In this document: one piece after another, positions 5,400 through 25,337 of the stretch
Numbering within the stretch: position 1 is the stretch's first letter
How the letters are laid out: each line of letters begins with the position of its first letter
From: a virus
Lineage: Duplodnaviria; Heunggongvirae; Uroviricota; Caudoviricetes
DNA: 25,337 bases
Direction: 5' to 3' (one strand)
Virus record (IMG/VR): IMGVR_UViG_2698536560_000009
Location: 1 to 25,337 of that record
The notes under the pieces: generated by a model
Seen by the model: only the letters and a program-made list of their open reading frames with translations
The model's database searches: none
Told to the model about the DNA's origin: nothing
Translations under genes and position numbers: made by a program

Positions 5400-5435
5400 G
5401 GGTAACGTCCTGTTACCCGTTTCCTTTTTTTATTT
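5400..5435 (+). terminator. hairpin plus T-run, oriented antisense to the late operon
   Basis: gggtaac-gtcct-gttaccc stem-loop (5400-5418) followed by gtttcctttttttattt on the plus strand. It lies between the 964-aa gene and the tail tube gene. Confidence 0.3.
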
Positions 5436-9970: not shown

Positions 9971-9973
9971 AAA

Positions 9974-10410
9974 TTATTCCCCATAGCTAAAAGATATAGT
10001 TTGTGTATGCACATACATCGTATTAGTTGCTTCGGCCTGGGTAGTCATTAAGCTCTCTTCCAGAACAACATTGAAAACATCCATTGGAAGTAGTTTGTTC
10101 AATTCATTAATAAAACCACTTGCATAGATTGCATCAATCACTTTACTAATTTCATCTGATGCAAGTTTATAATTTTCGCCTACTGCTACAAAGTCCACTC
10201 TAAATTCACAGAGATAATTAATCCCACGTGGTATTAATTGACCATTAATTAATGTATTTGCTTTTTGAATGCGTGAACGTGTTACAGTACTGTCACCGAT
10301 GTATAACATTGGTTTGTCGTCTACCGTTGCTCTCGATTGATATTGAAGATTTACCAAAGTACTGAGATTATTAATCAAAAATTTCCGTATTGTGTAGTCT
10401 GAAGTTCGCA

Positions 10411-10411
<1 letters not shown>
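9974..10411 (-). CDS. putative neck / tail completion protein
   Basis: 145 aa ORF between the capsid gene and the tail genes, with TAATG start/stop overlap to the upstream gene. Assigned by position only. Confidence 0.3.
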
Positions 10412-12554
<2,143 letters not shown>

Positions 12555-13998
12555 GGGTTAGTACTGGTGAATAGCCCATCTCAGAAATTATTTGTTCTTT
12601 ACTCTTTAATCCATTTTCCATTGCGAGAATCTCAGTCTGTAAATCTTTCAGTGGGTCTAGACTAATATGACGTTGTGGAATGAAATTACATTCAGTTAGT
12701 TCAGTAAATTTACTAAATGGCAAATCCTTCAACATCGGGTTATTTAGCATTTCATTCTTGAGCCACTTAATATACAAAGGTTGAAGTACTGACTTAACCA
12801 GGTTGTTTTGTTTTGCAAGAAATGTATTTTGCTGAATTTTGTCTGTTAACTTCGAGGCACTGAATGATGCCCCTGCGGTCGAACCTGTTAACGTCTGTGG
12901 TGTAAGATCGAGTGACATCCCTATGAAAATCAACTGGTTATCTAGAAATTCCTGTAGTGCGTCGAATGTTTGTGATGGACTGAGTGACTTCACATCTTGA
13001 CCCTCACGAAGTTCTAACAGTACTCCACCCTCCATACGTGCAACCTGGTATTCATCTACATCAGAATCGTCATCATCATCAATATCTTCAAATGATGCAT
13101 CACGTGACGCATTCGTGATAAAACCCATGCTTTCCGCTGCTAATTGTCGCGTCTTGATTGACGCCCTCATGAATTTATCCAGGTCTGCCAGTAGTCCAGT
13201 ACCGCAAAATATATCGGGAATGCCGCGTTGCTGTTCTGGATAGTCAGTACTGAATAAGTGAAGGATCTCTTCTGCGGGTACACGTTCTGCTTCAGTACTA
13301 ACTGAGTACGATACGGGGTCATATTGTGTTAGAAAGTAAGCAACGGGTTTACCAGTGCCTTTTTCAAACTCAATACCATTTGAACGATAGTTACCATTAC
13401 TTAGCCATTGATTACCTTTCGTATCAATTACAGTACTGTCTAGTACTTCAATCTTCATACCAGGATGGATACGAATAAAACAACTACCATCAATTGAACG
13501 TGTCTTCTCTACCAGTGACTGGAATTTGGACATTTCAAGTTTTCCATTTAGGGAAAAACGTGCGGGGTCTTCACACCATGAGTAGAACGCATCGGCGAGA
13601 CGTTTATTAATATCATTATTAACATTGTCATCTTCAGCAACGTGAACACATGGACGATACGTAATACCATTTGCACCACATACACTACTGGCATTCTGTG
13701 CAATATACTTCTTATGAATTGGGTTACTCATACTAAGCTGGCGACTTTGTAGTACTGCCGTGTTCAATACACGGTTAATTACGGCATTGATCGAGCCACT
13801 CTTACCAACTGCACCAAATGTACCAAGTTGTGCGGCTGCGTTACCGTTACCGATGGAAGAAATGGAACGTTTGGTTTCAATACCTAAATTACCAAGTACT
13901 GGTTCAGTACGTATTTTTGCCTTACCAATATATAGTTTTGGTTCTTCTTTTGGCTGTTCCTTTGCCTTTCTAAAATTAAAATTAAACATATTCCCCTC

Positions 13999-14475
13999 TT
14001 ATCTTGTAAAACGTGTAATTGATTTGATGGGGTTGCCCGTCTTAACTTTTCGTACACGTGCCTTTTCATCTGCAAGTTTCTTTGCATATACTTGTCGCAT
14101 ACGGTAAAGTACTTCAGCACTTTCTGTTACTAGTGTTTTATTATTAATGGTAAGTTGTGTAGTACCACCCCCAAGAATCTTGGATTCAATAACCATATCA
14201 ATTTCATCGATCAATTCCTGTAACTGATTTATTTTATTTGCTGCTTCAAGTGGATCTTTAACAGTGAAAAGTTGTACAGACATACTACCATCGCTAATAA
14301 TTGCAGTACTGACACCAGCTACCCATTGAGATGTATCAATGGGTAAATTTGGAAAGTATTCTTGCTCATTACCTTTTGCATCAATGATTTTAATCGTTGC
14401 TGTTGATGGGAAGTCTAGTACTATAGTTTCACCAATAAAGATCGGGCTAGTTAAGTCCGTCTTACGTGGATTCAT
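13999..14475 (-). CDS. hypothetical head protein (gpW position between terminase and portal)
   Basis: 158 aa ORF with ATG at 14473-14475, lying between the large terminase and portal genes. No motif recognised. Confidence 0.35.
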   Translation of the reverse strand: MNPRKTDLTSPIFIGETIVLDFPSTATIKIIDAKGNEQEYFPNLPIDTSQWVAGVSTAIISDGSMSVQLFTVKDPLEAANKINQLQELIDEIDMVIESKILGGGTTQLTINNKTLVTESAEVLYRMRQVYAKKLADEKARVRKVKTGNPIKSITRFTR

Positions 14476-14487
14476 ATTAATTCCTTA

Positions 14488-16407
14488 TTAAAACCAGTTA
14501 CGATTATTAAGTGCTGAAAGTCCTTTTTTCTTAGGTTTTGATTTCTGCTTCTCTTTCTGTACTGGTTGTTGTTCTGCTTTAGTTTTTATGGATTCTTCTA
14601 CTTTAGTATTTAGTTCTTTTTGTTTAGCTCTATACTCTCGCAACTTCCTATACGGTTGTGCACCAAGTGCCTGTATCTTGTGATCAATCGCTGCTAATGA
14701 GTAGACGAGCGTATCGAGACATTCGTTACGCTCTCCATTTGGATTCTCCCATACCATCACTGAACCTTTTCGTACTAGTTTTTCTGCTGTAAGTTGGAGG
14801 AAGTAATCATCGACAAGGGAATGACTGAAGTGTATATTAGTACTATACTCTCCCCCTTCACATGCCTGTCGTAATAACTTCTTAACCTGGTGCTTCAGTA
14901 CTTGAGTATTAATATTAACCAGTTGATGTCCTGCCGTTGTGGAATCCTTCGTGATGGGACCAGTCTGTGTGTTTGCACCCTTAATTGCATGCCATCGTCC
15001 CCCACTGGAAGAACAAAAGCGATATATGGAACTGGTTGCAGATCCGTTTGAGCTATCAATAAAGGATCTCAGTACTGGTACTTTTCTACCTGAAGTGGTT
15101 TTAAATATACTCTTACTATAATTAAGTAGTTCAGTATATGCCTTATCTTCATACTTAGTACAATCGACACCATAAAACATACGGTGGTCCAGAACCCATA
15201 TATTCTTTTCATCAAATGCAATAGTACTACATTCTAAGCGGTCTATCTGTTGGTCACATGCCAGTACAATACCAAGTGCATTATCTGGAATATGTTTTAC
15301 ATCTAAATCAAAGTCGCGTAAGTTTTCCAGTACTGTAAGATCTTCTTTAATATTATTCTTATCTACCCACGGTAAACCGAGTACGTTATTATAGAAAGAT
15401 TGTTCTTCAAAGTTTATCCATGAGTTCTTAAAGTCTTCAACAATCTTCTCAATAGTAGTAATCGGTGAATATAGTCTATTAACATGGTATCCCCTGAAAC
15501 CCATCACATGCAGTCTGTGTGCTTTCCAGTAACCTTTTGCAACCATCCGTGCACGTTGCCCTTCAGTGATTACTTCATCACATCCTGGACAGTGTAGGCG
15601 TGCTGTAGTGGGTTCTGGTGCATTACGTCGTTCGTTGAACTTCACCCATTCAAACTTTATATTCTCCCATTCTAAAATATGGTCATGATCACAATGTGGA
15701 CACACGACATGAAAATGTCTCTGGTCTGAGAGTTCCCATTGCTGGCAGATCATATCGTCCTGTACTAATGGTGTGGAGGCCATCACGATCAGGGAGTTCT
15801 TACCAAACTGAGTTGCACGCTGTTCTATGAGTGATAGGGGGTTGCCCTCATCTTGTTCTGGATCTACACCTGATAATTCATCAATGAAGATTGCAGGAAC
15901 TGTAAGCGAGCGTAGGGACTGGCTAGAATTGAGGTTAACAAAGTATGTCTTAGTACCGTCAACGTTCTGTTGAGTGTGTAGATCGTTTACTGCATTCTTA
16001 TCTGATTTGTCAGTGATTAATGCTTGAAGGTTTGGACACGCATTAATAGTATCCATCCATTTACCAGTACGGAACTTTTTCACAGTACTACCACTACTAC
16101 CCGCAAATATCATATGGGAGGGTTTATTTGCCATCCTGTAAAGCATTGCATTTTGTAGTATTGTTGTCTTGAGTAATTGTGCACTACTCATTAAACAGAT
16201 CTTCTGTACTGATGGATCTACTGTGGCGTTTAGGGGTTCTACTTGAAATGAAAATAATTTAGTTTTTTGTTGTGCCAGTGGTCCATCTGGAAATACAGTA
16301 TATTGTTCACACCATTCAGATGGTTTAATCTTCGGTGGGGGTAATATTGATTTCAGACTCTGGTTCAGAATCTTCATCATCTTCTTCTGGCTGTTCTTCG
16401 TACTCAT
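14488..16407 (-). CDS. terminase large subunit (lambda gpA-like)
   Basis: 639 aa. Contains Cys/His clusters (CPHCDHDH, HCPGCDE) and an acidic IFIDELSG segment typical of gpA-family terminases. Follows a Nu1-like small subunit gene. Confidence 0.8.
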   Translation of the reverse strand: MSTKNSQKKMMKILNQSLKSILPPPKIKPSEWCEQYTVFPDGPLAQQKTKLFSFQVEPLNATVDPSVQKICLMSSAQLLKTTILQNAMLYRMANKPSHMIFAGSSGSTVKKFRTGKWMDTINACPNLQALITDKSDKNAVNDLHTQQNVDGTKTYFVNLNSSQSLRSLTVPAIFIDELSGVDPEQDEGNPLSLIEQRATQFGKNSLIVMASTPLVQDDMICQQWELSDQRHFHVVCPHCDHDHILEWENIKFEWVKFNERRNAPEPTTARLHCPGCDEVITEGQRARMVAKGYWKAHRLHVMGFRGYHVNRLYSPITTIEKIVEDFKNSWINFEEQSFYNNVLGLPWVDKNNIKEDLTVLENLRDFDLDVKHIPDNALGIVLACDQQIDRLECSTIAFDEKNIWVLDHRMFYGVDCTKYEDKAYTELLNYSKSIFKTTSGRKVPVLRSFIDSSNGSATSSIYRFCSSSGGRWHAIKGANTQTGPITKDSTTAGHQLVNINTQVLKHQVKKLLRQACEGGEYSTNIHFSHSLVDDYFLQLTAEKLVRKGSVMVWENPNGERNECLDTLVYSLAAIDHKIQALGAQPYRKLREYRAKQKELNTKVEESIKTKAEQQPVQKEKQKSKPKKKGLSALNNRNWF

Positions 16408-16846
16408 ATGATCCTAATTCCCTTAGTTTCTCATCAATCCTTTCTTCTAGTTTTATCCGCAATGTATCCGCATCTTCACTTTCAAATAGTTCTACATAGA
16501 TAGATGCCGGAATACTTCTTAGTACTCCGCGTAGTGCTGCAAAATAACCAGTTAGTGTTTGAGTTACATAATCAGTACTCAATACCTTTTCAGTACTGAT
16601 ATTTAATTCAATCTCAACTAAATCTGCTTCAAGTGATATCTTGCGTAATTTCTCTTTTTCAATCTGTTCTTTTACATCAGTATTTCGCAATGGTTGGATA
16701 ATATTAATTAGTATCCATTGATCTATTTCTTTTTTACTTGCTTTCTTTGGGTGTGGCATTCCACGTTTTGCCCATTCACGGCTTACAGTACTGTCATTAA
16801 CTCCCATACGTTCTGCAATTTCGTTTGTTGTATATCTATCGTTCAA
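16325..16846 (-). CDS. terminase small subunit (lambda Nu1-like, N-terminal HTH)
   Basis: The N-terminal TNEIAERMGVNDSTVSREWAKRGMP resembles the Nu1 winged-HTH (…IRTIQNWQEQGMP), and the C-terminus is acidic. The start codon at 16844-16846 is TTG; the first in-frame ATG would truncate the HTH. Confidence 0.6.
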   Translation of the reverse strand: MNDRYTTNEIAERMGVNDSTVSREWAKRGMPHPKKASKKEIDQWILINIIQPLRNTDVKEQIEKEKLRKISLEADLVEIELNISTEKVLSTDYVTQTLTGYFAALRGVLRSIPASIYVELFESEDADTLRIKLEERIDEKLRELGSYEYEEQPEEDDEDSEPESEINITPTED

Positions 16847-16904
16847 TTTGTTTATCCAGGTTTTGTTTGTGTTATTTAAAATATTTAATATGCAAAAAAA
16901 ATAG

Positions 16905-16915
16905 TTCGCGGCGAA
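16905..16915. other. GC-rich near-palindrome TTCGC-G-GCGAA, candidate cosN-like site
   Basis: An isolated GC-rich symmetric element in the AT-rich region about 60 bp upstream of the Nu1-like terminase start. It resembles the GGCGGCGA core of lambda cosN. A 7-bp inverted repeat acttccc/gggaagt lies at 16915-16921 and 16940-16946. Confidence 0.25.
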
Positions 16916-16952
16916 ACTTCCCGATTGTGTCTATTCAGAGGGAAGTACCTAT

Positions 16953-16981
16953 AGTATTTATTAACCCTACCATGTTATACT
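16953..16981 (+). promoter_or_regulatory. candidate sigma70-type promoter with extended -10 (TGtTATACT) for the SLATT-NTase operon
   Basis: TG at 16973-16974 and TATACT at 16976-16981, about 30 nt upstream of the ATG at 17011. The -35 is weak. Confidence 0.3.
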
Positions 16982-17010
16982 GTTAGGGAATCGGATTTGT
17001 TGGAGTGTTT

Positions 17011-17514
17011 ATGAATCAGAAGCTCATCCAAACAGTCATTTCTGAGTGTCATCGTATAGAAGAGGACGCTCTTTACTCTTCTAAATCTCATTATAATGTT
17101 TCTGATAGATGGGATAAGCTGAATCTGTGGTTCGGTGTACCATTAGCAATCTTAACCGCTTTGAGTGGTATTGCCGCAATCAAGAGTACAGCCAATGCTG
17201 TTGTAGCTATTTCCATAACTGCTACAATTCTAACTGCATTAAATACGTCTCTTAACCCAAGTAAGCGTGCTGCACTTCATAAATCAGCAGCAAATGAATA
17301 TAATAAATTAAAGAATGAAGTTAGAATATTTAGGGAAATATTGACTTCTAATTTTGATTTTACTGATAAAACTTTGATTGAAAAACTTACGAGTTACTCT
17401 GATCGACGCAATCAACTTAATTCAAGTTCGCCAAATATTCCTCGGTGGGCTTATGAGAAAACTCAAAGAGATGTTAACCAAGGCTTTACTAAGTATAATA
17501 TTGACAAGGAATAA
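17011..17514 (+). CDS. SLATT-like two-transmembrane effector protein
   Basis: 167 aa from the ATG at 17011 (GGAG 6 nt upstream; the ORF track begins at a GTG at 17005). Two adjacent hydrophobic helices (LWFGVPLAILTALSGIAAI and AVVAISITATILTALNTSL) are flanked by short soluble regions. The stop lies 2 nt before the NTase start. The family call rests on architecture and on the SMODS neighbour. Confidence 0.45.
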   Translation: MNQKLIQTVISECHRIEEDALYSSKSHYNVSDRWDKLNLWFGVPLAILTALSGIAAIKSTANAVVAISITATILTALNTSLNPSKRAALHKSAANEYNKLKNEVRIFREILTSNFDFTDKTLIEKLTSYSDRRNQLNSSSPNIPRWAYEKTQRDVNQGFTKYNIDKE

Positions 17515-17516
17515 AC

Positions 17517-18293
17517 ATGACAGTCAGTACCTATCTTGAGTCTATTAAAAGCAATGCTTATCAAAGAGATATTACAATAACGAATTCAATTGCAACCATA
17601 AAAAACAGACTGAATGGTTATTTTGCTGGTGAACTTGTTAGTCATTTTGTATTTGGCTCATATTCACGTAATACAATGCTTCCTCGTAGCTATGATCCTT
17701 CTTCTGATGTTGATTATATGGTTGTATTCAAAAATGTAATATATCAGCCTCAGACCTACCTAAACAAGCTAAGGGGTTTTGTAAATTATTACTATCGTAC
17801 ATCTGAAATAAAGCAAAGCCACCCTACTATTCAATTGAACCTTAATCATATTACTTTCGAGCTTGTCCCTGCATCTCATAATATTTTATTTGGTTATCAA
17901 ATCCCTTCCAACCAGGATTTTTTGAACCGTTGGATGAATACCGATCCCAATGCGTTCAATACTGATTTAACTAATTGCAATAAAAATAATAACAATTTAA
18001 TTAAGCCTCTTATTCGCATAATGAAATATTGGAATGCCAATGCAGGTTATGTCTTTGAGTCGTATCAACTTGAAAAAGATATTGTTAGCTTTAACTATTT
18101 TTGGTGCTCTACCCTTAAAGAATATTTTTACTCTGCTGTAGAACAACTTTCAGGTTCCTATTATCTCGCACAATGGAAAAAAGATAAGATTCAGCGTCTA
18201 AAAAATTCAGTTATGATGTCAAAATATTATGAGCAGTTAAACAATCATTTTGCCGCCGAAAATGAAATAAAGAAAATTTTACCCATAAAATAA
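17517..18293 (+). CDS. SMODS / CD-NTase-like nucleotidyltransferase (Pol-beta superfamily)
   Basis: 258 aa. Carries the GS-x15-DVD signature (FGSYSRNTMLPRSYDPSSDVDYMVVF), a downstream acidic ITFELV, and a LIRIMKYW motif like the OAS/cGAS-type helix. AAGGA Shine-Dalgarno 8 nt upstream. Confidence 0.6.
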   Translation: MTVSTYLESIKSNAYQRDITITNSIATIKNRLNGYFAGELVSHFVFGSYSRNTMLPRSYDPSSDVDYMVVFKNVIYQPQTYLNKLRGFVNYYYRTSEIKQSHPTIQLNLNHITFELVPASHNILFGYQIPSNQDFLNRWMNTDPNAFNTDLTNCNKNNNNLIKPLIRIMKYWNANAGYVFESYQLEKDIVSFNYFWCSTLKEYFYSAVEQLSGSYYLAQWKKDKIQRLKNSVMMSKYYEQLNNHFAAENEIKKILPIK

Positions 18294-18298
18294 TCTTG

Positions 18299-18326
18299 CC
18301 CCCTTATATTACTAATTATAAGGGGG
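18299..18326. terminator. perfect 10-bp stem hairpin immediately after the NTase gene
   Basis: cccccttata - ttactaat - tataaggggg, starting 6 nt after the stop at 18291-18293. A U-rich tract follows on the minus-strand side, so it may act bidirectionally. Confidence 0.4.
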
Positions 18327-18540
18327 TACAGCTCATTGTCTTTGCTTGAATCCAAAAAATCATTCTCGATATTTTTACTTGTAAGAATTGAGTACAGTTG
18401 AAACATTCCACCGTCGTACAGCTAAATGAGATTGCTAAGATTGTATGACCCGCTCCTCTACCATCAGTATCAGGAGATTACATTCCCTTATCGCTAAAGA
18501 TAGCAGTTTTGTGAGAAGAGATAGTTTCCAATTTCTAATT

Positions 18541-18567
18541 TATAAGCCAGTTAGTTGCTGGCTTATA
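18541..18567 (-). terminator. hairpin 4 nt downstream of the tail-anchored protein gene
   Basis: tataagccag - ttagttg - ctggcttata, a 10-bp stem. There is no clear U-run. Confidence 0.3.
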
Positions 18568-18571
18568 ATCA

Positions 18572-19246
18572 TCATGATTTAACAGATACTAATGCCAGAA
18601 TAGATGCTACTGCGGCAGCCAACGAAACTATAAGACTTAATGTAGGTATATATAATGCTGTAACTCTTCTAAACTTGTTCTCTTTGTCGTTATACTGAAT
18701 AAAAAACATCTTAATTTTCAGTAAGCGGATTAAAATTAAATCTTTTAATGCGGCCTTGTGTAAAACACCTGTAACACGGTGATAATGAAGTAAATTCTTT
18801 ACTGCTTTCTCTATTTTTTTTGGTGTTATGTGTTTAACGTTATATGAATGATGGACAATCAAGGAATCATGTGTTGCTAATGAATCATCTGAAGTAGACG
18901 GAAAAAGAATTATATGCACAGCCCCCGTCGCACTATATGTAATTGAAAGTGCGGCTCCTTTTTGCCAATGATGATTAAACTTTATGCTTTCGGTAGTTTT
19001 TTCCTGCCGCATATTTCCAGTCATACGATCAGCGATCTGAAATGTCAGGCAATCAAAACCATAACCATCTGGTTCATCTTGCATATCAATTATATTAAAT
19101 CTTATATGCTCTCCTGATAATTGGGTTGATAGTATTTCTAATTGCTTTTTTATTTTAGGTTTGAATATAATCCAGTTTACATTAGAAATTAATCTTCTAA
19201 GTTCGTCTCTTTCAAACTTTGCTCTAAGCTCTTTCTTCCACTCCAT
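18572..19246 (-). CDS. hypothetical tail-anchored membrane protein
   Basis: 224 aa with a GGAG Shine-Dalgarno and ATG at 19244-19246. A soluble His-rich domain is followed by a single C-terminal transmembrane helix (LYIPTLSLIVSLAAAVASILALVSV). Sits alone on the minus strand between hairpins. Confidence 0.5.
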   Translation of the reverse strand: MEWKKELRAKFERDELRRLISNVNWIIFKPKIKKQLEILSTQLSGEHIRFNIIDMQDEPDGYGFDCLTFQIADRMTGNMRQEKTTESIKFNHHWQKGAALSITYSATGAVHIILFPSTSDDSLATHDSLIVHHSYNVKHITPKKIEKAVKNLLHYHRVTGVLHKAALKDLILIRLLKIKMFFIQYNDKENKFRRVTALYIPTLSLIVSLAAAVASILALVSVKS

Positions 19247-19569
19247 TATCTCCCCCTAAGCCTCTTGCTACTATAGATTATTTAGATTCTATCGTACCAT
19301 AATTGATAAACTTACCCTAGGTCGATAATCAATAGTATATGTATGTTCTATTTGGTGGTAAAGTGTTAATGCTACATGGTATAGGCTATAATGATGATTA
19401 CTCATAAAATCAATTCTTATATCGATATTTTCAGTTTATTATCGCAGTTTGAGTATTCGTCCATGTATAAGTTTGCATAAAAAATAGCACACTGGTTAGA
19501 GTAAAATCATATTGAACATTGTGTTTGAATGCTCTATATTTTGGTGATGTTAACTTTTGAGATTGCAGA

Positions 19570-20373
19570 ATGAAATTTGTCTCTGAAAGAATTGACCATG
19601 TAAAAATAGCTAATGGATATTGTGTAATATGTGGTAATTTTGGCAAATTAAAAAAAGACCATGTTCCCCCGCAATGTGCATCTAAACCTTCACCTATGTT
19701 ACAAAAAACGATTTCTGAGTATTTCTCTAATACTCGAGTACCACCAATTAAAGCAAAAAGCGGGACAACTTTTCGTACCATTTGTCACAATTGTAACTCG
19801 AATATTTTAGGATCAATGGATGCAGAAATAGGCCGTGTTACAACTGAATTCATCGAAAAGTTAAATGATTATTTTAGTGGTAAGTTCTTTTACAAAAATT
19901 ATATTTCATTAAAATTTGATGCGGATAAATTTCTAAGAGCAATGATTGGACACCTTCTGGCTGCAACTTCAGTAAAAGATTGTATGAAGCCTATTGTTGA
20001 TAGTCCTTTTTATACTCCATTGAGAAATTTTGTATTAGGCAGGAATCCAGACATTGGGGCAACTCATAATATTTACTATTGGTTTTATCCATTCAGAAAA
20101 CAAATTACTGCTCAGTCAGTTACATTCTACAATAATGGACATCATAGTATATGTTCTTGCTTACATTTTTTCCCAATATCTTTTTTGGTTACACTGAAGG
20201 AGCAAGGAACATTTCCTATTCATGCAACTGAAATGACTCAATATGATCAATCTCTTCATTTTAATATGACAACGGCTAATATTGATTATGCTTCATTTCC
20301 CTTTGTAGGTTTAAAGAATAATCAATTTATGATGGTAATTTCTGGTCATACTTGTGTTAGTTATCCTAAATGA
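19570..20373 (+). CDS. HNH-motif (His-Me finger) nuclease-like protein with uncharacterised C-terminal domain
   Basis: The N-terminus contains C-x2-C ... DH ... C-x2-C-N (CVICGNFGKLKKDHVPP ... TICHNCNSN). The spacer is longer than in the canonical HNH motif. The C-terminal ~180 aa are unrecognised. Confidence 0.5.
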   Translation: MKFVSERIDHVKIANGYCVICGNFGKLKKDHVPPQCASKPSPMLQKTISEYFSNTRVPPIKAKSGTTFRTICHNCNSNILGSMDAEIGRVTTEFIEKLNDYFSGKFFYKNYISLKFDADKFLRAMIGHLLAATSVKDCMKPIVDSPFYTPLRNFVLGRNPDIGATHNIYYWFYPFRKQITAQSVTFYNNGHHSICSCLHFFPISFLVTLKEQGTFPIHATEMTQYDQSLHFNMTTANIDYASFPFVGLKNNQFMMVISGHTCVSYPK

Positions 20374-20400
20374 TTTTCAACTAAAGGTTGAGAAATATAG

Positions 20401-20445
20401 ACATAAGAACATAAGAACATAAGAACATAAGAACATAAGAACATA
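20401..20445. repeat. tandem octanucleotide repeat (ACATAAGA) x 5.6
   Basis: acataaga x5 then acata, in the intergenic region between the HNH gene stop (20373) and the next gene (20591). Confidence 0.9.
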
Positions 20446-20457
20446 GTCCAACTGTTC

Positions 20458-20519
20458 AGCGACACGTCCCACACACACCAACTAAACAAACCTACCCTTT
20501 ATGAGTGGGGCGTGTCGCT
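20458..20519. repeat. GC-rich inverted repeat with 15-bp arms (one mismatch) and a 32-nt CA-rich spacer
   Basis: agcgacacgtcccac (20458-20472) pairs with gtggggcgtgtcgct (20505-20519); the spacer is acacaccaactaaacaaacctaccctttatga. Confidence 0.8.
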
Positions 20520-20590
20520 AATAGTTTACGCCAGAATGGTTATTATGGTAAAGTTCATTTTTCACTTTGATATATTGGATTTCTAAAAAA

Positions 20591-21142
20591 ATGGAAGCTG
20601 AAACCATTACACAACTCATTGCAGTCGGTGGTACTTTAGGCGGTGCATTAATAGCTGCGGGTGTAACATTGGCAAGCCAATTAATCACTAAAAAATATGA
20701 GAACGAAAAACTAAAAAAACAACTTTTATTCAAAATACTCGAAGATGAATTAAAAGAAAAAAAGCAAACTATTAAACCTTTCATTCAGTTTATTAATTCT
20801 TTGAATCTTCCAGAAAATTTTAATTTTTATGATGATGGTGATCTTTTAGATCAAATTATGCTTTATAAACAGGATTTAATTAAAAGTAAAGCAAGTGACT
20901 TCCTTCTCGATTATACATTATACATGACACCACAAATTCACGATGCGATTTGGACGGTTACTAATGCTATAAATGATTTTGAAGAATTGGGAGCACGGTT
21001 TTATGATTCATCATTGAGTAAACAAGAAAACGATGAAATATTACTTAGAAATTGTAGCGGTAAGCCAACTGAAATTTGGGAAGCTTTGATGAAATTGAAA
21101 GGCTTGCTCTATAGTGAAGTTAACATAGCTGATAAATTATGA
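20591..21142 (+). CDS. hypothetical membrane-anchored coiled-coil protein
   Basis: The ORF track starts at a TTG at 20567; the first ATG is at 20591. An N-terminal transmembrane helix (LIAVGGTLGGALIAAGVTLASQLI) is followed by a K/E-rich helical domain. The stop overlaps the next gene's ATG as ATGA at 21139-21142. Confidence 0.5.
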   Translation: MEAETITQLIAVGGTLGGALIAAGVTLASQLITKKYENEKLKKQLLFKILEDELKEKKQTIKPFIQFINSLNLPENFNFYDDGDLLDQIMLYKQDLIKSKASDFLLDYTLYMTPQIHDAIWTVTNAINDFEELGARFYDSSLSKQENDEILLRNCSGKPTEIWEALMKLKGLLYSEVNIADKL

Positions 21143-21840
21143 ATATAAAAACTATAAACTCTACTCTTGTCGGCATTGTTGCAGTACTTCTGTTTTTAGC
21201 AGTCTTAGTACTCGTTAAGGTTCTATTCGCTGGTAGCAGGGGGTTTGAATGGGGGAACGCAGCTGATTTAACAAGTGCGTTATGCAATATCGTGATTGCG
21301 TCTACAGCTCTTTGTGCTGCTTTTGTAGCAAATAATTGGTTCGTTCAGAATAAAAAATTAAAATCCCTTTCTACCTCACATCAGTTGGCTATGAAATTTG
21401 AGATGCAGTTATGGGAAATAAATTCACGTTTATATAATGATGGTATAGTTCGTGCTTCCATCAGGAAATATGTTCAGGATAATAAAGAACTGACAGATGA
21501 AATAAAATCTAAAGTTGCTGCTGAAATTAATAAAAAGGCCACAAGTGATTTATCTGAACTTGCTAAGCTATATACGACAAGGTCAATGCTAGCCAGGTTT
21601 GATATTAAGTTAAGCGAACGGCTTGAAAATTTATTTAAAAATATATTAGAGTTAAGGCAGTCATATTTAGACAATCAATATATATATCTATTGACCATAT
21701 GCAAACATATTAATTGCCCCAAGCATGAGGACGTAATTGCAGCTACAGAAAATCTTGAAAGTGTTAAAAGAGAGCTAGCTGCCATATTTCAGTACGAGCT
21801 ATGTGAAACAAATATTGATACTGATTATTCGTTCAGCTAA
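21139..21840 (+). CDS. hypothetical 2TM membrane protein (paralog A)
   Basis: 233 aa with an N-terminal hydrophobic hairpin (LVGIVAVLLFLAVLVLVKVLFAGSRGFEWG, then LCNIVIASTALCAAFVANNWF) and a soluble C-terminal domain. The N-terminus is about 35% identical by eye to that of the 22818-23561 protein. Confidence 0.5.
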   Translation: MNIKTINSTLVGIVAVLLFLAVLVLVKVLFAGSRGFEWGNAADLTSALCNIVIASTALCAAFVANNWFVQNKKLKSLSTSHQLAMKFEMQLWEINSRLYNDGIVRASIRKYVQDNKELTDEIKSKVAAEINKKATSDLSELAKLYTTRSMLARFDIKLSERLENLFKNILELRQSYLDNQYIYLLTICKHINCPKHEDVIAATENLESVKRELAAIFQYELCETNIDTDYSFS

Positions 21841-21877
21841 ATTTATAGTTAATTGATGTAAATAAAAAGGAAAGCTT

Positions 21878-22699
21878 ATGCTTGGGGAGTCATTTAATCA
21901 ATTCATGGTAGAGTCTTATTTGTCCAGTACCTCAATAGGTGGTGGGCTTACTGCTGTGCGGAAATGTAGAGCACATGATAAAGGTAGCTTCTATAGCAGC
22001 TTCTTTCAATTATCAATTGGCATAGAAAGGTTTTTTAAGATTATCTTCATACTCAATCATATGATCGAAAATAATCTTGAGAAGCCAGACTTCCGTACAC
22101 TTAAAAAATTCAGCCATAATATTGCGGAGCTTCATAAAAACTGTTCAAGCTATGGTGCTAGCCATTTACCCAATTTGGAGTGGGAATTAAACTGGCAGCA
22201 AAACCTCATATTAGAAATGCTTTCTGAATTCGCTGATGCTTCAAGATATTATAATCTTGATAAAATTGTAAAAGGCAAAAAAGAAGTCAAAGATCCGTTA
22301 GCACAGTGGAACGAAATAATTAATTCTTGCTTCCGTAAACACATTACTGATTCTAGAAAACAAAAACTAGAAAGAGAATTAAATTTATGGGCCGACAAAT
22401 ACAAAGCATACGGTTACACCTGGAATAGAGGTCTTGATGGTGCGATTTTAAGCCAAATTGATGAGTATATACTTTCCTGGAAAGTAATAAACGTTTCACC
22501 TTATATTGTGTTTGAAATCATTGATATGTTGCAGCCTTATTATTATCTAATTTCTAAATTTAAAGATGATATTGACAACATTGAGCACAGTAAAGGGATA
22601 AGAGAACCTCTGGTTCCATATCTCCATGAGATATTTGTATTTCTACTTGTCCATAAGAAGTTAGCTTTGAGTAGAAAAACATGGAGTTTCCGTTATTAA
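21878..22699 (+). CDS. hypothetical soluble protein flanked by the two 2TM paralogs
   Basis: 273 aa with an AAGGA Shine-Dalgarno and ATG at 21878. An R-x4-H (RKCRAH) motif lies near the N-terminus, but no confident family assignment is possible. Confidence 0.45.
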   Translation: MLGESFNQFMVESYLSSTSIGGGLTAVRKCRAHDKGSFYSSFFQLSIGIERFFKIIFILNHMIENNLEKPDFRTLKKFSHNIAELHKNCSSYGASHLPNLEWELNWQQNLILEMLSEFADASRYYNLDKIVKGKKEVKDPLAQWNEIINSCFRKHITDSRKQKLERELNLWADKYKAYGYTWNRGLDGAILSQIDEYILSWKVINVSPYIVFEIIDMLQPYYYLISKFKDDIDNIEHSKGIREPLVPYLHEIFVFLLVHKKLALSRKTWSFRY

Positions 22700-22735
22700 T
22701 TACATGGACATGTATCACATTATTAATCAGAGAGG

Positions 22736-22753
22736 CACTAATCATGATTAGTG
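22736..22753. promoter_or_regulatory. 18-bp perfect palindrome cactaatcatgattagtg, candidate operator upstream of 2TM paralog B
   Basis: Perfect dyad in the 118-bp gap between the genes at 21878-22699 and 22818-23561. Confidence 0.35.
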
Positions 22754-22817
22754 GAATATATATCCATCAATGCTACATATATACATCTATGTCTTTTATT
22801 TAAGAAATGAGATTAAC

Positions 22818-23561
22818 ATGCTTAATATTAAAAAATATAATTTAATACTACTAAGTACCGTACTATTACTGCTGCTAATTGCTATATTAGTTGGTGTAAA
22901 AATATTATTTTCTGGTTCGAAAGGATGGGAGTGGGTAACTTTAATTGGAACATTATGTAGTGCTGTAGGTACATTAGGTACACTATGGGTAGCCTACCAA
23001 GCATACCTAAAAGCACCTGAATGGTTGTCGCAAAAACATTATGATGTAGTATATGGTGTTATTGAGAAAGCAATTTATCAAGATCTTAATAAAGTACGTA
23101 CTTCAACCTTAATTTTAAAACATCAATTAGTGACATTCTCCAAAAAATATCGCAATCATTTAAAAAACGAGACCATACCCCAAGATTCACATGATGAGTT
23201 TATGAAGGAAACAGATGCTCTTGTTTCCGATTTATTCTTCACTTCTTACTCCGTTATTAATTCCTTAAAATCTATTGATAGAACTAATTATGCTTTAAGC
23301 GAATACACAAAAAACATTATTGCTGAACTTAAATTAAATATTGATGAATATAACGGACTGAGTATCGATTTCTATATTGCAAGTTCTGAGGTTCCTGCAC
23401 TTATACAGGCCGATGAATGTGTGAGGGATCAAACTAGTAGTGAGCTTTTCGTTATACAGTCAAAAGCAATTTCACTTCACAATAAGATTTCATCTTTCAT
23501 AAAAGATATATATGATGATAACTATCCAATTGATAACTTCATAACTCTAAAGAAAAAATGA
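22818..23561 (+). CDS. hypothetical 2TM membrane protein (paralog B)
   Basis: The likely start is the ATG at 22818 (MLNIKKYNLILL...); the ORF track begins at 22770. The N-terminal hairpin LILLSTVLLLLLIAILVGVKILFSGSKGWEW matches paralog A (shared VK.LF.GS.G.EW). Confidence 0.5.
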   Translation: MLNIKKYNLILLSTVLLLLLIAILVGVKILFSGSKGWEWVTLIGTLCSAVGTLGTLWVAYQAYLKAPEWLSQKHYDVVYGVIEKAIYQDLNKVRTSTLILKHQLVTFSKKYRNHLKNETIPQDSHDEFMKETDALVSDLFFTSYSVINSLKSIDRTNYALSEYTKNIIAELKLNIDEYNGLSIDFYIASSEVPALIQADECVRDQTSSELFVIQSKAISLHNKISSFIKDIYDDNYPIDNFITLKKK

Positions 23562-23696
23562 TTAATACCCTATCTTGCAAACCTATTAAGTTTGTAGAAT
23601 TACTGATGACTTAATAGAAAAAGTCATACTTGATTCAAAATCATTAAGGATGCATATTAAAGAAACGTTTACATTTCCCAAATAAGCATCAGTTCT

Positions 23697-23730
23697 AAAA
23701 CACCGGATTTATCATTGCATCTGGTGTTTT
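23697..23730. terminator. hairpin at the convergent junction of the plus-strand island and minus-strand small genes
   Basis: aaaacacc / ggtgtttt 8-bp stem with an 18-nt loop. The right arm overlaps the last codons of the 66-aa ORF. Confidence 0.25.
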
Positions 23731-23912
23731 GAATAAATTTCTATTAGTAAATCTCTGTGTAGATTAGTACTAGGTAGTTCTTGCAATAATTGTATGTTAT
23801 GCTTTTCAATTACTTGATAACCTAGCTCTAGTACTTCTACAATTCCTTTTTTAAAATCAAACTCATAGATGTACTCTCCATAGTTATGGTGTATAAAATT
23901 GACGCCTTTCAT
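23712..23912 (-). CDS. hypothetical small protein (second gene of coupled pair)
   Basis: 66 aa with a GAGGA Shine-Dalgarno 7 nt upstream. Its ATG overlaps the stop of the 103-aa ORF as ATGA at 23909-23912. Confidence 0.4.
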   Translation of the reverse strand: MKGVNFIHHNYGEYIYEFDFKKGIVEVLELGYQVIEKHNIQLLQELPSTNLHRDLLIEIYSKHQMQ

Positions 23913-24220
23913 TCGTAGTCCTCACTTATTTTATTCATTTGTGTTTGAATAATAATTAATCGATTAATGTCGATCTCTGTTTGCAGTGCTAAGCTTGCTT
24001 GGAATAGTTCTGATTCACTCATCCTAGATAGATCAGGTGTTTCATTTATTTGAGTACCATCAATCTTCTGATGATAGAATTGTAGTCCTTCTCGTTGCAG
24101 TACTACACGTGTTGGGTGATTAAAGTAGACAATCTGATCCGTGAATACTGTCATAGTACTGTGATCCTCATACGTGTATCGGTGAAACAGATCATACTCT
24201 TCAGTTTTTAGTAATTTCAT
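23909..24220 (-). CDS. hypothetical small protein (first gene of coupled pair)
   Basis: 103 aa with an AGGA Shine-Dalgarno 9 nt upstream of the ATG at 24218-24220. No transmembrane segment and no recognised motif. Confidence 0.45.
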   Translation of the reverse strand: MKLLKTEEYDLFHRYTYEDHSTMTVFTDQIVYFNHPTRVVLQREGLQFYHQKIDGTQINETPDLSRMSESELFQASLALQTEIDINRLIIIQTQMNKISEDYE

Positions 24221-24329
24221 TTTTATTATCCTCTGTAGTACTGGTATTTATTAAAAAGGTGTGATTCTATAATAAAGGCCAGTTTATTTTCATAGTCTAA
24301 TGGGTATACACAGACTCCCTACTCACTTT

Positions 24330-24690
24330 CATTTCCTCATAGTATGCCTCTCGGTGGCTTGTGTGTTGCGTATTCATCCGGCGGTGCGGCTTCACACTTT
24401 AATTAATTAAGTTCCTAGCTAGTATGGGTAGTGGTTCACTTTAGTGAGCTTCAACAGCGAACGACCCAAACAAGGGAGTTTACGACCGCGTAGTACTCAC
24501 GAATACTTTAGACCGTAGGTCGACCCCAAATACTTTATTAATCACTTTGGTGAGTACATGGGGTTTGTTTGAGCGAAAGCAAGTAAAGGACTTGCTCGAC
24601 CTGAAAGGGCGAAAGTCTGGTTATAAATTCTAAGATCAAAGGCGAGCTTGCGAGGTTTTGATCTTCGGACTTCAGTCCATTTTATATGTG
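24330..24690 (+). ncRNA. GC-enriched structured non-coding segment (candidate ncRNA or late-transcript leader)
   Basis: No convincing ORF. Contains several local stems, including aagatcaaa/tttgatctt, agcaagt/acttgct, gtactcac/gtgagtac and two GCGAAAG (GNRA-type) hairpin loops. Strand and class are undetermined. Confidence 0.2.
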
Positions 24691-24707
24691 TTATTATATT
24701 ATAGTGT

Positions 24708-24719
24708 TCCATTAATGAA
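24708..24719. promoter_or_regulatory. operator-like palindrome copy 1 (tccattaatgaa, one mismatch)
   Basis: Imperfect copy of the TCCATTAATGGA dyad. Confidence 0.3.
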
Positions 24720-24782
24720 GTAAAATTCACAATTTCAACGGTAGAATGCGGGTTTCAAGCCATATATGTTGGAATATAACAC

Positions 24783-24794
24783 TCCATTAATGGA
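24783..24794. promoter_or_regulatory. operator-like 12-bp perfect palindrome TCCATTAATGGA (copy 2)
   Basis: Perfect dyad, 41 bp from copy 3. Confidence 0.4.
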
Positions 24795-24823
24795 ATAAAA
24801 TCTCTATTAGTGGATTAACTCAT

Positions 24824-24835
24824 TCCATTAATGGA
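24824..24835. promoter_or_regulatory. operator-like 12-bp perfect palindrome TCCATTAATGGA (copy 3)
   Basis: Perfect dyad, 14 nt from the stop of the 162-aa ORF. Confidence 0.4.
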
Positions 24836-24848
24836 GTTAAAAAATGCT

Positions 24849-25337
24849 TCATTTACCATCAATGAAACCCTGTAGAATAATAATTAGTTCCTCTGCTGAT
24901 GCTCCGCTATCATGTGCGTTTGCTAACGTCTCATAGAACTGTTTGTTGTCTATGTAGTGCATTCCGTCCTTTTGCACTTTGAATAGCTTCACTTTGCGTT
25001 TATGTGCTGCTATAAGAGCTTTTGATACTGCGGTTGCTACACGCCTTACCTTTACTGCGGTAGATTCACTTACACGTTCCTGAACTTCTTTTATATGATA
25101 GTCCTGGTAAAGATGTAACCTGGCTAAAACTTTCTCAGTACTGAATGTGATCAAATTGAAAACGATGTAATAGATCTTAAATCCACTATATGGCTTACCG
25201 TTACCCATTGGGACTGATGCTATTGCTTCATCAATTATCTGTTTTGCTTCTGGTGTAAGATCGTTGTCATAGTCTCCAAAATTCCCCGCAATGCGTAGGA
25301 ATGGTGTATTGTCGTAATCTCGTGCTTTATTTGCCAT
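24849..25337 (-). CDS. hypothetical protein (possible regulator; start coincides with window edge)
   Basis: 162 aa ORF whose ATG is at 25335-25337, exactly at the window end, so the true start could lie beyond the window. Stop at 24849-24851. Followed by a region with three TCCATTAATGGA palindromes. Confidence 0.4.
   Translation of the reverse strand: MANKARDYDNTPFLRIAGNFGDYDNDLTPEAKQIIDEAIASVPMGNGKPYSGFKIYYIVFNLITFSTEKVLARLHLYQDYHIKEVQERVSESTAVKVRRVATAVSKALIAAHKRKVKLFKVQKDGMHYIDNKQFYETLANAHDSGASAEELIIILQGFIDGK

What the first reader, a model, noticed from the sequence alone, without database searches (positions are those of the whole stretch)
16847..23711. Accessory island sits at the lambda bor-equivalent moron locus and is compositionally distinct
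The island lies between the late or regulatory genes at 23712-25337 and the cos/terminase start, is transcribed opposite to the late operon, is visibly more AT-rich, and lacks CAGTACTG entirely. In lambda, the opposite-strand moron bor occupies this position. The island looks like recently acquired cargo carrying several candidate defence genes. I found no holin or endolysin where lambda has S-R-Rz, so the lysis cassette is either elsewhere or displaced.
Basis: partly seen in the sequence, partly recalled or inferred. Interest (0 to 1): 0.55.

Follow-up and report, generated by a model that had tools for sequence, protein, structure and literature searches.

The report
Prophage defence-gene slot beside terminase
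About 6.6 kb of swappable accessory genes, led by a CBASS anti-phage system, sits next to the DNA-packaging genes of an uncultured E. coli prophage; this is a known kind of prophage defence hotspot, not a lambda bor-type locus.

Summary
The block at 16847-23711 has 32.6% GC against 38.8-40.8% for late-gene segments of equal size. It has no CAGTACTG and 2 AGTACT where 23 are expected at the late-gene rate. Seven of its eight ORFs run opposite to the late operon. No lysis gene flanks it.

The window is an E. coli prophage, 100% identical to strain N61 apart from an IS3 insertion there. It has a large serine recombinase.

The island opens with a two-gene type I CBASS: a SLATT 2TM effector and a SMODS CD-NTase. 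Six uncharacterised genes follow: four membrane proteins, a Cys4 metal-binding protein with no fold match, and a HEPN-fold protein.

Across 23 related prophages the terminase and head genes are always present, but the island genes are patchy. Other occupants of the slot include JukA, methyltransferases and PDC candidates.

Against the closest relative, synonymous divergence is 0.08-0.09 in CBASS and 0.44-1.06 in the adjacent core genes. This points to recent exchange.

About 87 complete E. coli genomes keep only the island, with all eight ORFs intact.

The lambda-bor analogy is only positional. The upstream neighbours are integrase-proximal genes, and the lysis genes lie beyond the tail fibre gene.

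Verdict: a new member of a known kind.

The parts
16325..16846 (-). terS (small terminase), first gene of the late operon. It is the left conserved flank of the slot.
   Evidence: phrog_57 terminase small subunit, 8e-20. Present in 23 of 23 related loci.
16906..16953 (.). Conserved bipartite element. Read in terS orientation it is AGGTACTTCCC - about 20 nt - CGGGAAGTTTCGCCGC. It is a candidate cos site or late promoter and belongs to the core, not the cargo.
   Evidence: The same two boxes lie 60-130 bp upstream of terS in most relatives, including L002, L011-L014, L016, L018, L020, L023 and L088. Its function is inferred.
17005..17514 (+). CBASS effector: a SLATT-type protein with two transmembrane helices. 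RefSeq starts it at 17011 (167 aa).
   Evidence: PADLOC 2TM effector PDLC00712, 2e-70. NCBIfam SLATT_4, 2e-41. Two hydrophobic helices at residues 39-57 and 61-79.
17517..18293 (+). CBASS CD-NTase (SMODS cyclase), 258 aa. It starts 2 nt after the effector gene ends.
   Evidence: PADLOC cyclase PDLC00769, 3.5e-113. Pfam SMODS, 4.9e-31. G46-S47, D64-x-D66 and E115 are present. Weak sequence match to PDB CD-NTase 9sa4, 6e-6.
18572..19246 (-). 224-aa protein with a C-terminal membrane anchor. Function unknown. It is the only island gene on the late-gene strand.
   Evidence: Transmembrane segment at residues 204-222. No family match. Present in L001 (95% identity) and L015 (67%) only.
19570..20373 (+). 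267-aa Cys4 metal-binding protein with HNH-like invariant residues. The family is uncharacterised and mis-named 'chaperonin' in RefSeq.
20401..20445 (.). Tandem repeat of the 8-nt unit ACATAAGA, 5 exact copies, in the intergenic region upstream of the next operon.
   Evidence: No run of two or more copies in the remnant L087, L001 or L088; the intergenic region is 32 nt shorter in L087.
20567..21142 (+). 191-aa protein with one N-terminal transmembrane helix (183 aa from the RefSeq start at 20591). First gene of a two-gene membrane module.
   Evidence: Transmembrane segment at residues 17-35. It overlaps the next gene by 4 nt. The same pairing occurs in L001 and in E. coli FDN-9.
21139..21840 (+). 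233-aa 2TM protein. It belongs to a fast-evolving family that recurs in this slot.
   Evidence: Transmembrane segments at 13-31 and 46-64. Its N-terminus is 42% identical to that of the 263-aa paralogue. The 233/263-aa family has homologues in this slot in the closest relative, the Klebsiella prophages and six other relatives.
21878..22699 (+). 273-aa all-helical protein with a HEPN-like fold. It is a candidate single-gene abortive-infection effector and is absent from all 23 related loci.
22770..23561 (+). 263-aa 2TM protein, paralogue of the 233-aa protein (247 aa from the RefSeq start at 22818).
   Evidence: Transmembrane segments at 25-43 and 56-74.
23606..23760 (.). Conserved junction that marks the right edge of the variable slot. 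It contains a hairpin (AACACCGGAT...ATCTGGTGTT, 23699-23728) followed by a run of T.
   Evidence: 82-83% identical in L001 and L088, although the adjacent cargo differs. The hairpin was read directly from the sequence. A terminator role is inferred.
23712..24220 (-). 66-aa and 103-aa ORFs inside an extra insert of about 500 bp (23755-24273). This insert is missing at this position in L001 and FDN-9. Its motif density matches native phage DNA.
   Evidence: The flanking segments are contiguous in L001 and L088. It holds 4 AGTACT sites.
24849..25337 (-). 162-aa integrase-proximal backbone gene of unknown function. It is the right conserved flank of the slot.
   Evidence: Homologues sit at the equivalent position in Klebsiella prophages (27-35% identity) and in L009 (33%). 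In N61 it lies between the island and the serine recombinase.

Best explanation
The block is the cargo of a variable accessory slot, a defence hotspot, in a temperate siphovirus-like prophage of E. coli. The prophage belongs to a widespread, uncultured, low-GC family of Enterobacterales prophages that integrate with a large serine recombinase.

The slot lies between the integrase-proximal backbone genes and terS. It sits just beyond a conserved element that may be cos.

Most of its genes point away from the late operon, so they can be expressed from the lysogen independently of phage development.

The first two genes form a type I CBASS. On infection by another phage, the CD-NTase would make a cyclic nucleotide signal. 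That signal would activate the 2TM SLATT effector, which would damage the membrane and kill the cell before the invader completes its cycle (abortive infection).

The remaining six genes are probably further exclusion or abortive-infection factors of unknown mechanism. They are a tail-anchored membrane protein, a Cys4 metal-binding protein, a 1TM+2TM gene pair, a HEPN-fold protein and a second 2TM paralogue.

Cargo modules are swapped between related phages by recombination at the conserved flanks.

Shown: gene identities, variability of the slot, recent exchange, purifying selection, and retention of the island without the phage. Inferred: expression in the lysogen, CBASS activity, the defence role of the six unknown genes, and the cos identity of the conserved element.
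For: Identity of the CBASS pair:
- PADLOC cyclase 3.5e-113 and 2TM effector 2e-70; Pfam SMODS 5e-31; NCBIfam SLATT_4 2e-41.
- The catalytic GS / DxD / E residues and two transmembrane helices are present.

Cargo rather than core:
- terS, terL, the head-tail joining gene, portal and capsid genes are present in 23 of 23 related loci.
- The CBASS pair is found only in L001 (98-99% identity) and in Rouxiella L017 (58-64%), at the same place in both.
- The 273-aa gene is in none of the loci. The 224-, 267- and 191-aa genes are each in two.
- Other occupants of the slot match JukA, type II methyltransferases, PDC-S29/S30/S31, PLD and a dynamin-like GTPase.

Recent exchange:
- Nucleotide identity to L001 jumps from 74-89% in late genes to 92-99% at about position 16800.
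- Synonymous divergence (dS) is 0.075-0.09 for CBASS and the 224-aa gene, against 0.44-1.06 for terS, terL, portal and capsid.

The genes are functional: the ratio of non-synonymous to synonymous divergence (dN/dS) is 0.07-0.26.

Benefit to the host rather than the virion:
- About 87 of 5426 complete E. coli genomes, including strain 55989, keep only window 15956-23668 inside another genomic island.
- In the remnant examined codon by codon (strain 357900) terL is truncated but all eight island ORFs are intact; strain 55989 is annotated the same way.
- Three exact island proteins (SLATT effector, 247-aa form of the 263-aa ORF, one 224-aa variant) reach the 1000-contig counting cap. The 162-aa backbone protein is on 57.

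Foreign composition: AGTACT density is 0.29 per kb in the island and 1.3-5.5 per kb in the flanking phage modules.

Precedent: the P2 and P4 defence hotspots lie adjacent to cos (PMC9122126). A homologue of the 267-aa protein sits in a moron position of P2-like phage pro147.
Against: - No expression or phenotype data exist. The promoter and terminator scans of the island are at chance level (42 promoter-like sites found, 42.7 expected).
- Six of the eight genes match no defence model, so calling them defence genes rests on association only.
- The closest relative shares five of the eight genes at the same place, so part of the block is stable within this sub-lineage.
- GC3 differs little from the core. 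The motif gap could also reflect selection against AGTACT in genes expressed in the lysogen rather than recent arrival.
- The 2TM family is present in roughly half of the relatives. It may be a semi-core resident rather than cargo.
- The N61 copy of the phage is probably defective: an IS3 sits in a tail gene and the lysozyme gene is truncated.
Confidence: 0.8

Rival explanations
1. One reading: the block occupies the lambda bor-equivalent moron locus. That is an opposite-strand insert between the late lysis or regulatory genes and cos.
For: The block lies immediately upstream of terS. It is mostly on the opposite strand. A conserved element that could be cos lies between terS and the first cargo gene.
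Against: - In complete elements the genes upstream of the island lead to a large serine recombinase at the prophage end, not to a lysis cassette.
- The Phage_lysozyme gene and a weak holin candidate lie after the tail fibre gene at the other end.
- No island protein matches a Bor family in Pfam or PHROGs.
- The phage is not lambdoid at the sequence level. There is no megablast match to any phage record, and the best TerL match is 34% identical.
Confidence: 0.1
2. The block is a core lysogeny or early module of this phage family, not exchangeable cargo. It would hold regulators, immunity functions or membrane proteins needed for the phage's own life cycle.
For: - No repressor or replication module was recognised anywhere in the 36-kb element.
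- A 2TM family member occurs in this slot in roughly half of the relatives.
- The closest relative shares five of the genes.
Against: - The other island genes are absent from at least 20 of 23 relatives, which all have intact core genes.
- The leading pair is an unambiguous CBASS.
- dS is 5-12 times lower than in the core, which shows separate ancestry.
- The island persists intact without the phage in about 87 genomes.
Confidence: 0.05
3. The compositional contrast does not show recent foreign origin. The island would be a long-term resident whose lower GC reflects membrane-protein composition. Its lack of AGTACT would reflect selection against that motif in genes expressed in the lysogen.
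For: - GC3 is nearly the same as in core genes. The difference lies in codon positions 1 and 2.
- Cargo ORFs in relatives have an intermediate AGTACT density: 1.30 per kb against 2.73 per kb in core genes and about 0.1-0.25 per kb background.
Against: - The jump in synonymous divergence at the terS boundary does not depend on composition.
- The integrase-proximal genes on the other side of the island carry 3.8 AGTACT per kb.
- The distal genes (273 aa and 263 aa) have no counterpart in the closest relative.
Confidence: 0.15
4. The cargo is real, but most of it is not anti-phage defence. The six unknown genes would serve other lysogenic-conversion roles, such as envelope modification, toxin-antitoxin addiction or host fitness.
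For: Five of the eight proteins are membrane proteins with no defence-family match. Prophage morons such as lambda bor and lom serve host-interaction roles (established knowledge).
Against: - They sit next to CBASS in a slot whose other occupants include JukA, methyltransferases and PDC candidates.
- The 273-aa protein has a HEPN fold.
- A homologue of the 267-aa protein occupies a P2-type moron site. By established knowledge, that site in P2 holds an exclusion gene.
Confidence: 0.25

Closest known systems
cos-adjacent defence hotspots of P2-like phages and P4-like satellites (Rousset et al. 2022, PMC9122126)
   Same: Both are variable blocks between conserved flanks, next to the packaging site and genes. 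Both hold known defence systems mixed with unknown genes, and both differ between otherwise related prophages of E. coli.
   Different: The phage family is different: GpA-type terminase, siphovirus-like tail genes, a large serine recombinase, 33-45% GC and no cultured relative. The flanks are integrase-proximal genes and terS, not gpA and gpQ. The cos identity of the conserved element is untested.
Lambda morons bor and lom
   Same: Both are independently oriented accessory genes inserted in or beside the late region. By established knowledge they are more AT-rich than their surroundings and are expressed from the prophage.
   Different: Lambda bor is a single lipoprotein gene downstream of S-R-Rz. 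Here there are eight genes spanning about 6.6 kb, none resembles Bor, and the lysis genes are at the other end of the prophage.
Type I CBASS with a 2TM / SLATT effector (the SMODS-SLATT pairs of Burroughs et al. 2015 and the type I classification of Millman et al. 2020; cited from my own knowledge)
   Same: It is a two-gene operon of a CD-NTase and a small two-helix membrane effector, with no Cap2/Cap3 or HORMA/TRIP13 partners.
   Different: The cyclase is short (258 aa) and scores below the NCBIfam CBASS_cyclase_b cut-off (94.6 bits against a cut-off of 200). The effector gene precedes the cyclase gene. The signal molecule and the trigger are unknown.
P2 Z/fun moron locus, between the tail-fibre-assembly and sheath genes (location and T5-exclusion role of fun cited from my own knowledge)
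   Same: A 51% homologue of the 267-aa protein occupies this position, on the opposite strand, in P2-like phage pro147.
   Different: The phage and the locus are different. No functional data exist for either homologue.
HEPN-domain toxins and abortive-infection proteins (MNT-HEPN toxins, the AbiA HEPN domain, Csm6)
   Different: The canonical Rx4-6H motif is absent. The invariant residues are E12, E50-R51-x2-K54, H80 and R123. It matches no Pfam or PADLOC family.

Membership tests
Type I CBASS | A CD-NTase (SMODS) enzyme with the Pol-beta-type GS ... [DE]x[DE] ... [DE] catalytic residues | tested here: met
   PADLOC PDLC00769, 3.5e-113. Pfam SMODS, 4.9e-31. G46-S47, D64-x-D66 and E115 are present.
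Type I CBASS | An effector gene adjacent to the cyclase in the same operon | tested here: met
   The 2TM SLATT gene ends 2 nt before the cyclase start, on the same strand. PADLOC PDLC00712, 2e-70. NCBIfam SLATT_4, 2e-41. Two transmembrane helices.
Type I CBASS | No ancillary Cap2/Cap3 genes (type II) and no HORMA/TRIP13 genes (type III) | tested here: met
   No such match among the eight island proteins in PADLOC, Pfam or NCBIfam.
Type I CBASS | Cyclic nucleotide synthesis on infection, and protection from phage | not testable with these tools
   This needs biochemistry and plaque assays.
Lambda bor-type moron locus | Located between the lysis cassette (S-R-Rz) and cos | tested here: not met
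   The upstream neighbours lead to the serine recombinase. The lysozyme and holin candidates lie beyond the tail fibre gene.
Lambda bor-type moron locus | Encodes a Bor-like lipoprotein | tested here: not met
   No Bor family match for any island protein.
Lambda bor-type moron locus | Opposite-strand accessory gene or genes, more AT-rich than the neighbours | tested here: met
   Seven of eight ORFs are on the opposite strand. GC is 0.326 against 0.396.
Prophage defence hotspot (in the sense of the P2/P4 cos-adjacent hotspots) | Gene content varies between conserved flanks across related elements | tested here: met
   The presence/absence matrix over 23 loci, together with the conserved left element and right junction.
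Prophage defence hotspot (in the sense of the P2/P4 cos-adjacent hotspots) | Known defence systems are among the occupants | tested here: met
   CBASS here and in L001 and L017. JukA, type II methyltransferases and PDC-S29/S30/S31 in other relatives.
Prophage defence hotspot (in the sense of the P2/P4 cos-adjacent hotspots) | Adjacent to the cos site | tested here: inconclusive
   A conserved bipartite element lies at 16906-16953 and in most relatives. Cos cleavage has not been shown, and the element could be a late promoter.
Prophage defence hotspot (in the sense of the P2/P4 cos-adjacent hotspots) | The element is a P2-like phage or a P4-like satellite | tested here: not met
   GpA-type TerL, siphovirus-type tail genes, a serine recombinase, and no DNA match to any phage record.
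HEPN superfamily (273-aa protein) | A HEPN alpha-helical fold | tested here: met
HEPN superfamily (273-aa protein) | A conserved Rx4-6H catalytic motif | tested here: not met
   The family alignment shows [KR]76-x3-H80 with H80 invariant. No Rx4-6H is conserved.
HNH nuclease (267-aa protein) | A beta-beta-alpha-metal fold recognisable by structure comparison | tested here: not met
HNH nuclease (267-aa protein) | Invariant Cys4 zinc ligands together with D-H ... N catalytic-type residues | tested here: inconclusive
   C18, C21, D30, H31, C72, C75 and N76 are invariant in 33 sequences. Their geometry was not examined.

The most novel reading that the evidence does not exclude
Beyond CBASS, the island would hold at least one anti-phage system not yet described. 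The candidates are:
- the 267-aa Cys4 protein, which has a confidently predicted fold with no solved relative;
- the 273-aa HEPN-fold protein, which lacks the canonical motif and belongs to a family of 712 cluster representatives that no defence catalogue searched here includes;
- the 1TM+2TM gene pair.

In addition, the family-wide AGTACT/CAGTACTG enrichment that stops at the island's edges would be a functional self-mark of this uncultured prophage family, one that cargo lacks.
Probability: 0.3. Interest if true: 0.55.

Novelty: new member of a known kind. Interest (0 to 1): 0.36.

Why it matters
It adds a third E. coli phage lineage to the picture of packaging-site-adjacent defence hotspots. 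This lineage is uncultured and unrelated to P2 and P4.

It gives a clean example of defence cargo outliving its phage. The same 7.7-kb fragment is intact in about 1.6% of complete E. coli genomes, including strain 55989.

It nominates three compact gene sets for phage-challenge testing.

It also shows that a family-specific oligonucleotide (AGTACT) separates native from imported DNA in these prophages far better than GC content does.

Tried and rejected
- Megablast of the window against the phage collection found nothing.
- Single-protein locus searches with TerL in the genome and viral collections found nothing. An alignment-based scan was needed.
- TerL tblastn against phages gave at best 34% identity.
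- The promoter and terminator scan of the island was at chance level and was not used.
- The Rfam scan of 16500-25337 found nothing.
- Profile searches of the PDB with the 267-aa and 273-aa families found nothing useful.
- A Pfam scan of 56 members of the 273-aa family gave no family.
- Pfam on the large integrase-proximal proteins of relatives gave only weak helicase hints. The backbone's replication functions therefore stay unidentified.
- Literature searches for CAGTACTG or AGTACT in a prophage context, and for the RefSeq protein accessions, found nothing relevant.
- I considered that stronger purifying selection explains the higher identity of the island to L001. I rejected this because synonymous sites show the same 5-12-fold drop.
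- I considered that the E. coli remnant is the source from which the phage picked up the island. I rejected this because the remnant includes terS and a truncated terL.

Full report
WHAT THE WINDOW IS

The - strand of 1-16846 carries a complete late operon. It contains terS (16325-16846), a GpA-type terL (14488-16407), a head-tail joining gene, a portal gene, a protease-capsid fusion, tail genes and a tape measure gene.

The window is 100% identical to a prophage of E. coli strain N61, except for an IS3 that interrupts a tail gene in that strain. In N61 the element spans about 36 kb between yggR and yggS. Its gene order is:
- a large serine recombinase;
- three tiny ORFs and an HNH fragment;
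- a 162-aa gene, followed by the 103-aa and 66-aa ORFs;
- the island;
- terS and terL, then head, tail and tail fibre genes;
- a truncated lysozyme gene, several small ORFs and a 226-aa ORF.

No cultured phage matches it at the DNA level. The best TerL match among phage records is 34% identical.

TerL homologues define a family of prophages in Klebsiella, Citrobacter, Salmonella, Serratia, Yersinia, Leclercia and other genera. Their GC content is 33-45%, in hosts of 50-57%.

THE OBSERVATION

- Island GC is 0.326. Late-region segments of the same length have 0.388-0.408 (p = 1.2e-6 on 500-bp windows).
- CAGTACTG occurs 25 times in the window against 0.36 expected. None lies in the island, where 9.8 are expected at the late-region rate.
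- AGTACT occurs 57 times in the late region and twice in the island, where 23.2 are expected (P = 2.4e-8).
- Seven of the eight ORFs point away from the late operon.
- No lysis gene flanks the island.

Two cautions apply. First, the GC gap is mainly in codon positions 1 and 2. GC3 is nearly the same, and the k-mer signature differs only modestly. Second, the true cargo is about 16960-23605. A conserved bipartite element at 16906-16953 recurs upstream of terS in most relatives. A conserved 155-bp junction at 23606-23760 recurs in L001 and in E. coli FDN-9 although their cargo differs.

WHAT THE GENES ARE

The ORFs at 17005-17514 and 17517-18293 form a two-gene type I CBASS.
- The first is a SLATT-type 2TM effector (PADLOC 2e-70; NCBIfam SLATT_4 2e-41).
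- The second is a 258-aa SMODS CD-NTase (PADLOC 3.5e-113; Pfam 5e-31). It has the GS, DxD and E catalytic residues.
- Related SMODS genes, 39-51% identical and in at least two cases next to an annotated SLATT gene, lie on plasmids of many phyla.

The other six genes match no defence model.
- 18572-19246 (- strand) encodes a tail-anchored membrane protein.
- 20567-21142 and 21139-21840 overlap by 4 nt. They encode a 1TM protein and a 2TM protein.
- 22770-23561 encodes a 2TM paralogue of the 233-aa protein (42% identical over the N-terminus).
- 19570-20373 encodes a 267-aa protein with invariant Cys4 and D-H...N residues. Its model is confident (pLDDT 87), but it has no structural neighbour. A 51% homologue sits on the opposite strand between the tail-fibre-assembly and sheath genes of P2-like phage pro147. 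From my own knowledge, that position holds the exclusion gene Z/fun in P2.

CARGO OR CORE?

I compared 23 related loci: L001, the Klebsiella prophages L002-L005, and eighteen Enterobacterales genomes (L006-L023).
- terS, terL, the head-tail joining gene, portal and capsid genes are present in all of them.
- The CBASS pair is only in L001 (98-99% identity) and in a Rouxiella prophage (58-64%), at the same position in both.
- The 224-, 267- and 191-aa genes each occur in two loci. The 273-aa gene occurs in none.
- Only the 2TM family is common; it is found in the closest relative, the Klebsiella prophages and six other relatives.
- The E. coli relative FDN-9 is inserted in ybhA. Its tail genes are 95-97% identical to the window's, yet its slot content differs: four ORFs of 304, 183, 236 and 198 aa, of which the 183/236-aa pair is homologous to the window's 191/233-aa pair.
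- Among 78 opposite-strand ORFs from the slots of relatives, PADLOC and Pfam recognise JukA (2 ORFs), type II methyltransferases (2), CBASS, PDC-S29/S30/S31, a PLD domain and a dynamin-like GTPase.

The slot is therefore a hotspot for accessory and defence genes.

RECENCY

Nucleotide identity to L001 steps up at about position 16800. It is 74-89% in late genes and 92-99% from there to about 20400. Beyond about 21300 nothing aligns until the junction.

Nei-Gojobori estimates give synonymous divergence (dS) of 0.44-1.06 for the capsid, portal, head-tail joining, terL and terS genes. They give 0.075-0.09 for the two CBASS genes and the 224-aa gene, 0.25 for the 267-aa gene and 0.34 for the 191-aa gene. 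The ratio of non-synonymous to synonymous divergence (dN/dS) in the island is 0.07-0.26.

The drop at synonymous sites rules out selection as the cause of the higher identity. It shows that the proximal cargo was exchanged between lineages after their cores had diverged. The low dN/dS shows that the genes are maintained.

LIFE WITHOUT THE PHAGE

About 87 of 5426 complete E. coli genomes, including strain 55989, carry only window 15956-23668. This fragment comprises a 5' piece of terL, terS and the whole island, at about 99.3-99.9% identity.

In both remnants examined it lies inside a genomic island that encodes a GTPase, an HTH regulator and an 'inovirus Gp2 family protein', and it ends at an IS3. 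All eight island ORFs are intact in the copy compared codon by codon.

In the wider protein collection, three exact island proteins reach the 1000-contig counting cap. The 162-aa backbone protein is on 57 contigs.

This is what one expects of genes that benefit the host cell rather than the virion.

HOW IT MOST LIKELY WORKS

The following is inferred from the established behaviour of these families. The cargo would be expressed from the prophage. CBASS would sense a superinfecting phage, make a cyclic nucleotide and open the membrane through the SLATT protein, so the infection aborts. The membrane proteins, the metal-binding protein and the HEPN-fold protein would add further exclusion or abortive-infection layers. 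None of this is tested, and the consensus promoter scan is uninformative.

THE LAMBDA COMPARISON

The positional resemblance is real: opposite-strand, AT-rich cargo just upstream of terS and a possible cos. The locus is not equivalent, however. The upstream neighbours are integrase-proximal genes. In the related E. coli element (FDN-9) a Phage_lysozyme gene lies beyond the tail fibre gene. In N61 only its C-terminal 90 codons survive at that position, next to a weak holin candidate and a GIY-YIG homing endonuclease.

The closer precedent is the cos-adjacent hotspot of P2 and P4 (PMC9122126), here in an unrelated phage lineage.

VERDICT

This is a new member of a known kind, of moderate interest.

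The most unusual thing seen is not the island. It is the motif that the island lacks; see the items noticed in passing.

Noticed in passing
window 1-16846 and 23712-25337; loci L001-L023, L086 and L088: AGTACT, often extended to CAGTACTG, is enriched 10-fold or more across the whole prophage family. Core genes carry 2-9 sites per kb. Two Leclercia prophages have 44-48 CAGTACTG in 22 kb. The E. coli flank has 0.09 per kb. Two relatives (L006 and L019) lack the enrichment. The sites fall in two reading frames (Ser-Thr 28, Val-Leu 31), so the constraint acts on DNA. Individual sites turn over at the neutral rate: 13 of 34 are shared with L001, against 34% expected. The window has 34 sites where L001 has 18. 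No explanation and no literature were found.
   Followed up: partly
L086 (E. coli N61) 1100-37300; L088 (E. coli FDN-9) 4268-38640: The complete element is only 34-36 kb. It has a large serine recombinase, packaging, head, tail and lysis genes, but no recognisable replication or repressor module. No cultured phage is related. Family members insert at different sites (yggR/yggS, ybhA next to modC). It is unclear whether they are autonomous temperate phages, defective elements or something like a gene transfer agent.
   Followed up: partly
L087 8001-15681 (E. coli 357900); L090 (E. coli 55989): Window 15956-23668 (truncated terL, terS and the island) is embedded in a larger genomic island that encodes a GTPase, an HTH regulator and an 'inovirus Gp2 family protein'. 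It is capped by IS3, and in strain 55989 also by IS100. About 87 complete genomes from humans, poultry, pigs and dogs carry it.
   Followed up: partly
window 20401-20445: An 8-nt tandem repeat (ACATAAGA, 5 copies) lies upstream of the 191/233-aa operon. It is followed by a GC-rich inverted repeat at about 20455-20520. The intergenic region is 32 nt shorter in the remnant copies, which fits one repeat copy there. It may be a slippage-prone expression switch.
   Followed up: partly
L086 35487-37277 (serine recombinase gene, outside the window): The integrase gene has no AGTACT in 1.8 kb, while the neighbouring small genes have 3.8 per kb. This suggests that the integration module is also an exchanged part.
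   Followed up: no
window 5430-9970: Two large genes lie between the head genes and the 158-aa major tail protein gene. One encodes a 964-aa 'tail protein' (phrog_2871). The other encodes a 560-aa protein with an N-terminal part like a major tail protein and a C-terminal part like a tail fibre. This is an unusual order for a siphovirus-type module. These genes are 67-77% identical in protein sequence to those of some relatives and are absent or highly divergent in the rest.
   Followed up: no
window 23755-24273: An insert of about 500 bp carries the 66-aa and 103-aa ORFs. It is missing at this position in L001 and FDN-9. Part of it (23792-23913) recurs in inverted orientation near the integrase of FDN-9. 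It is a second, smaller mosaic spot at the edge of the slot.
   Followed up: no
L086 3321-3749 and 34490-34627: A GIY-YIG SegE-like homing endonuclease gene lies among the small ORFs beyond the tail fibre gene. A 45-codon HNH endonuclease fragment lies next to the 162-aa gene.
   Followed up: no
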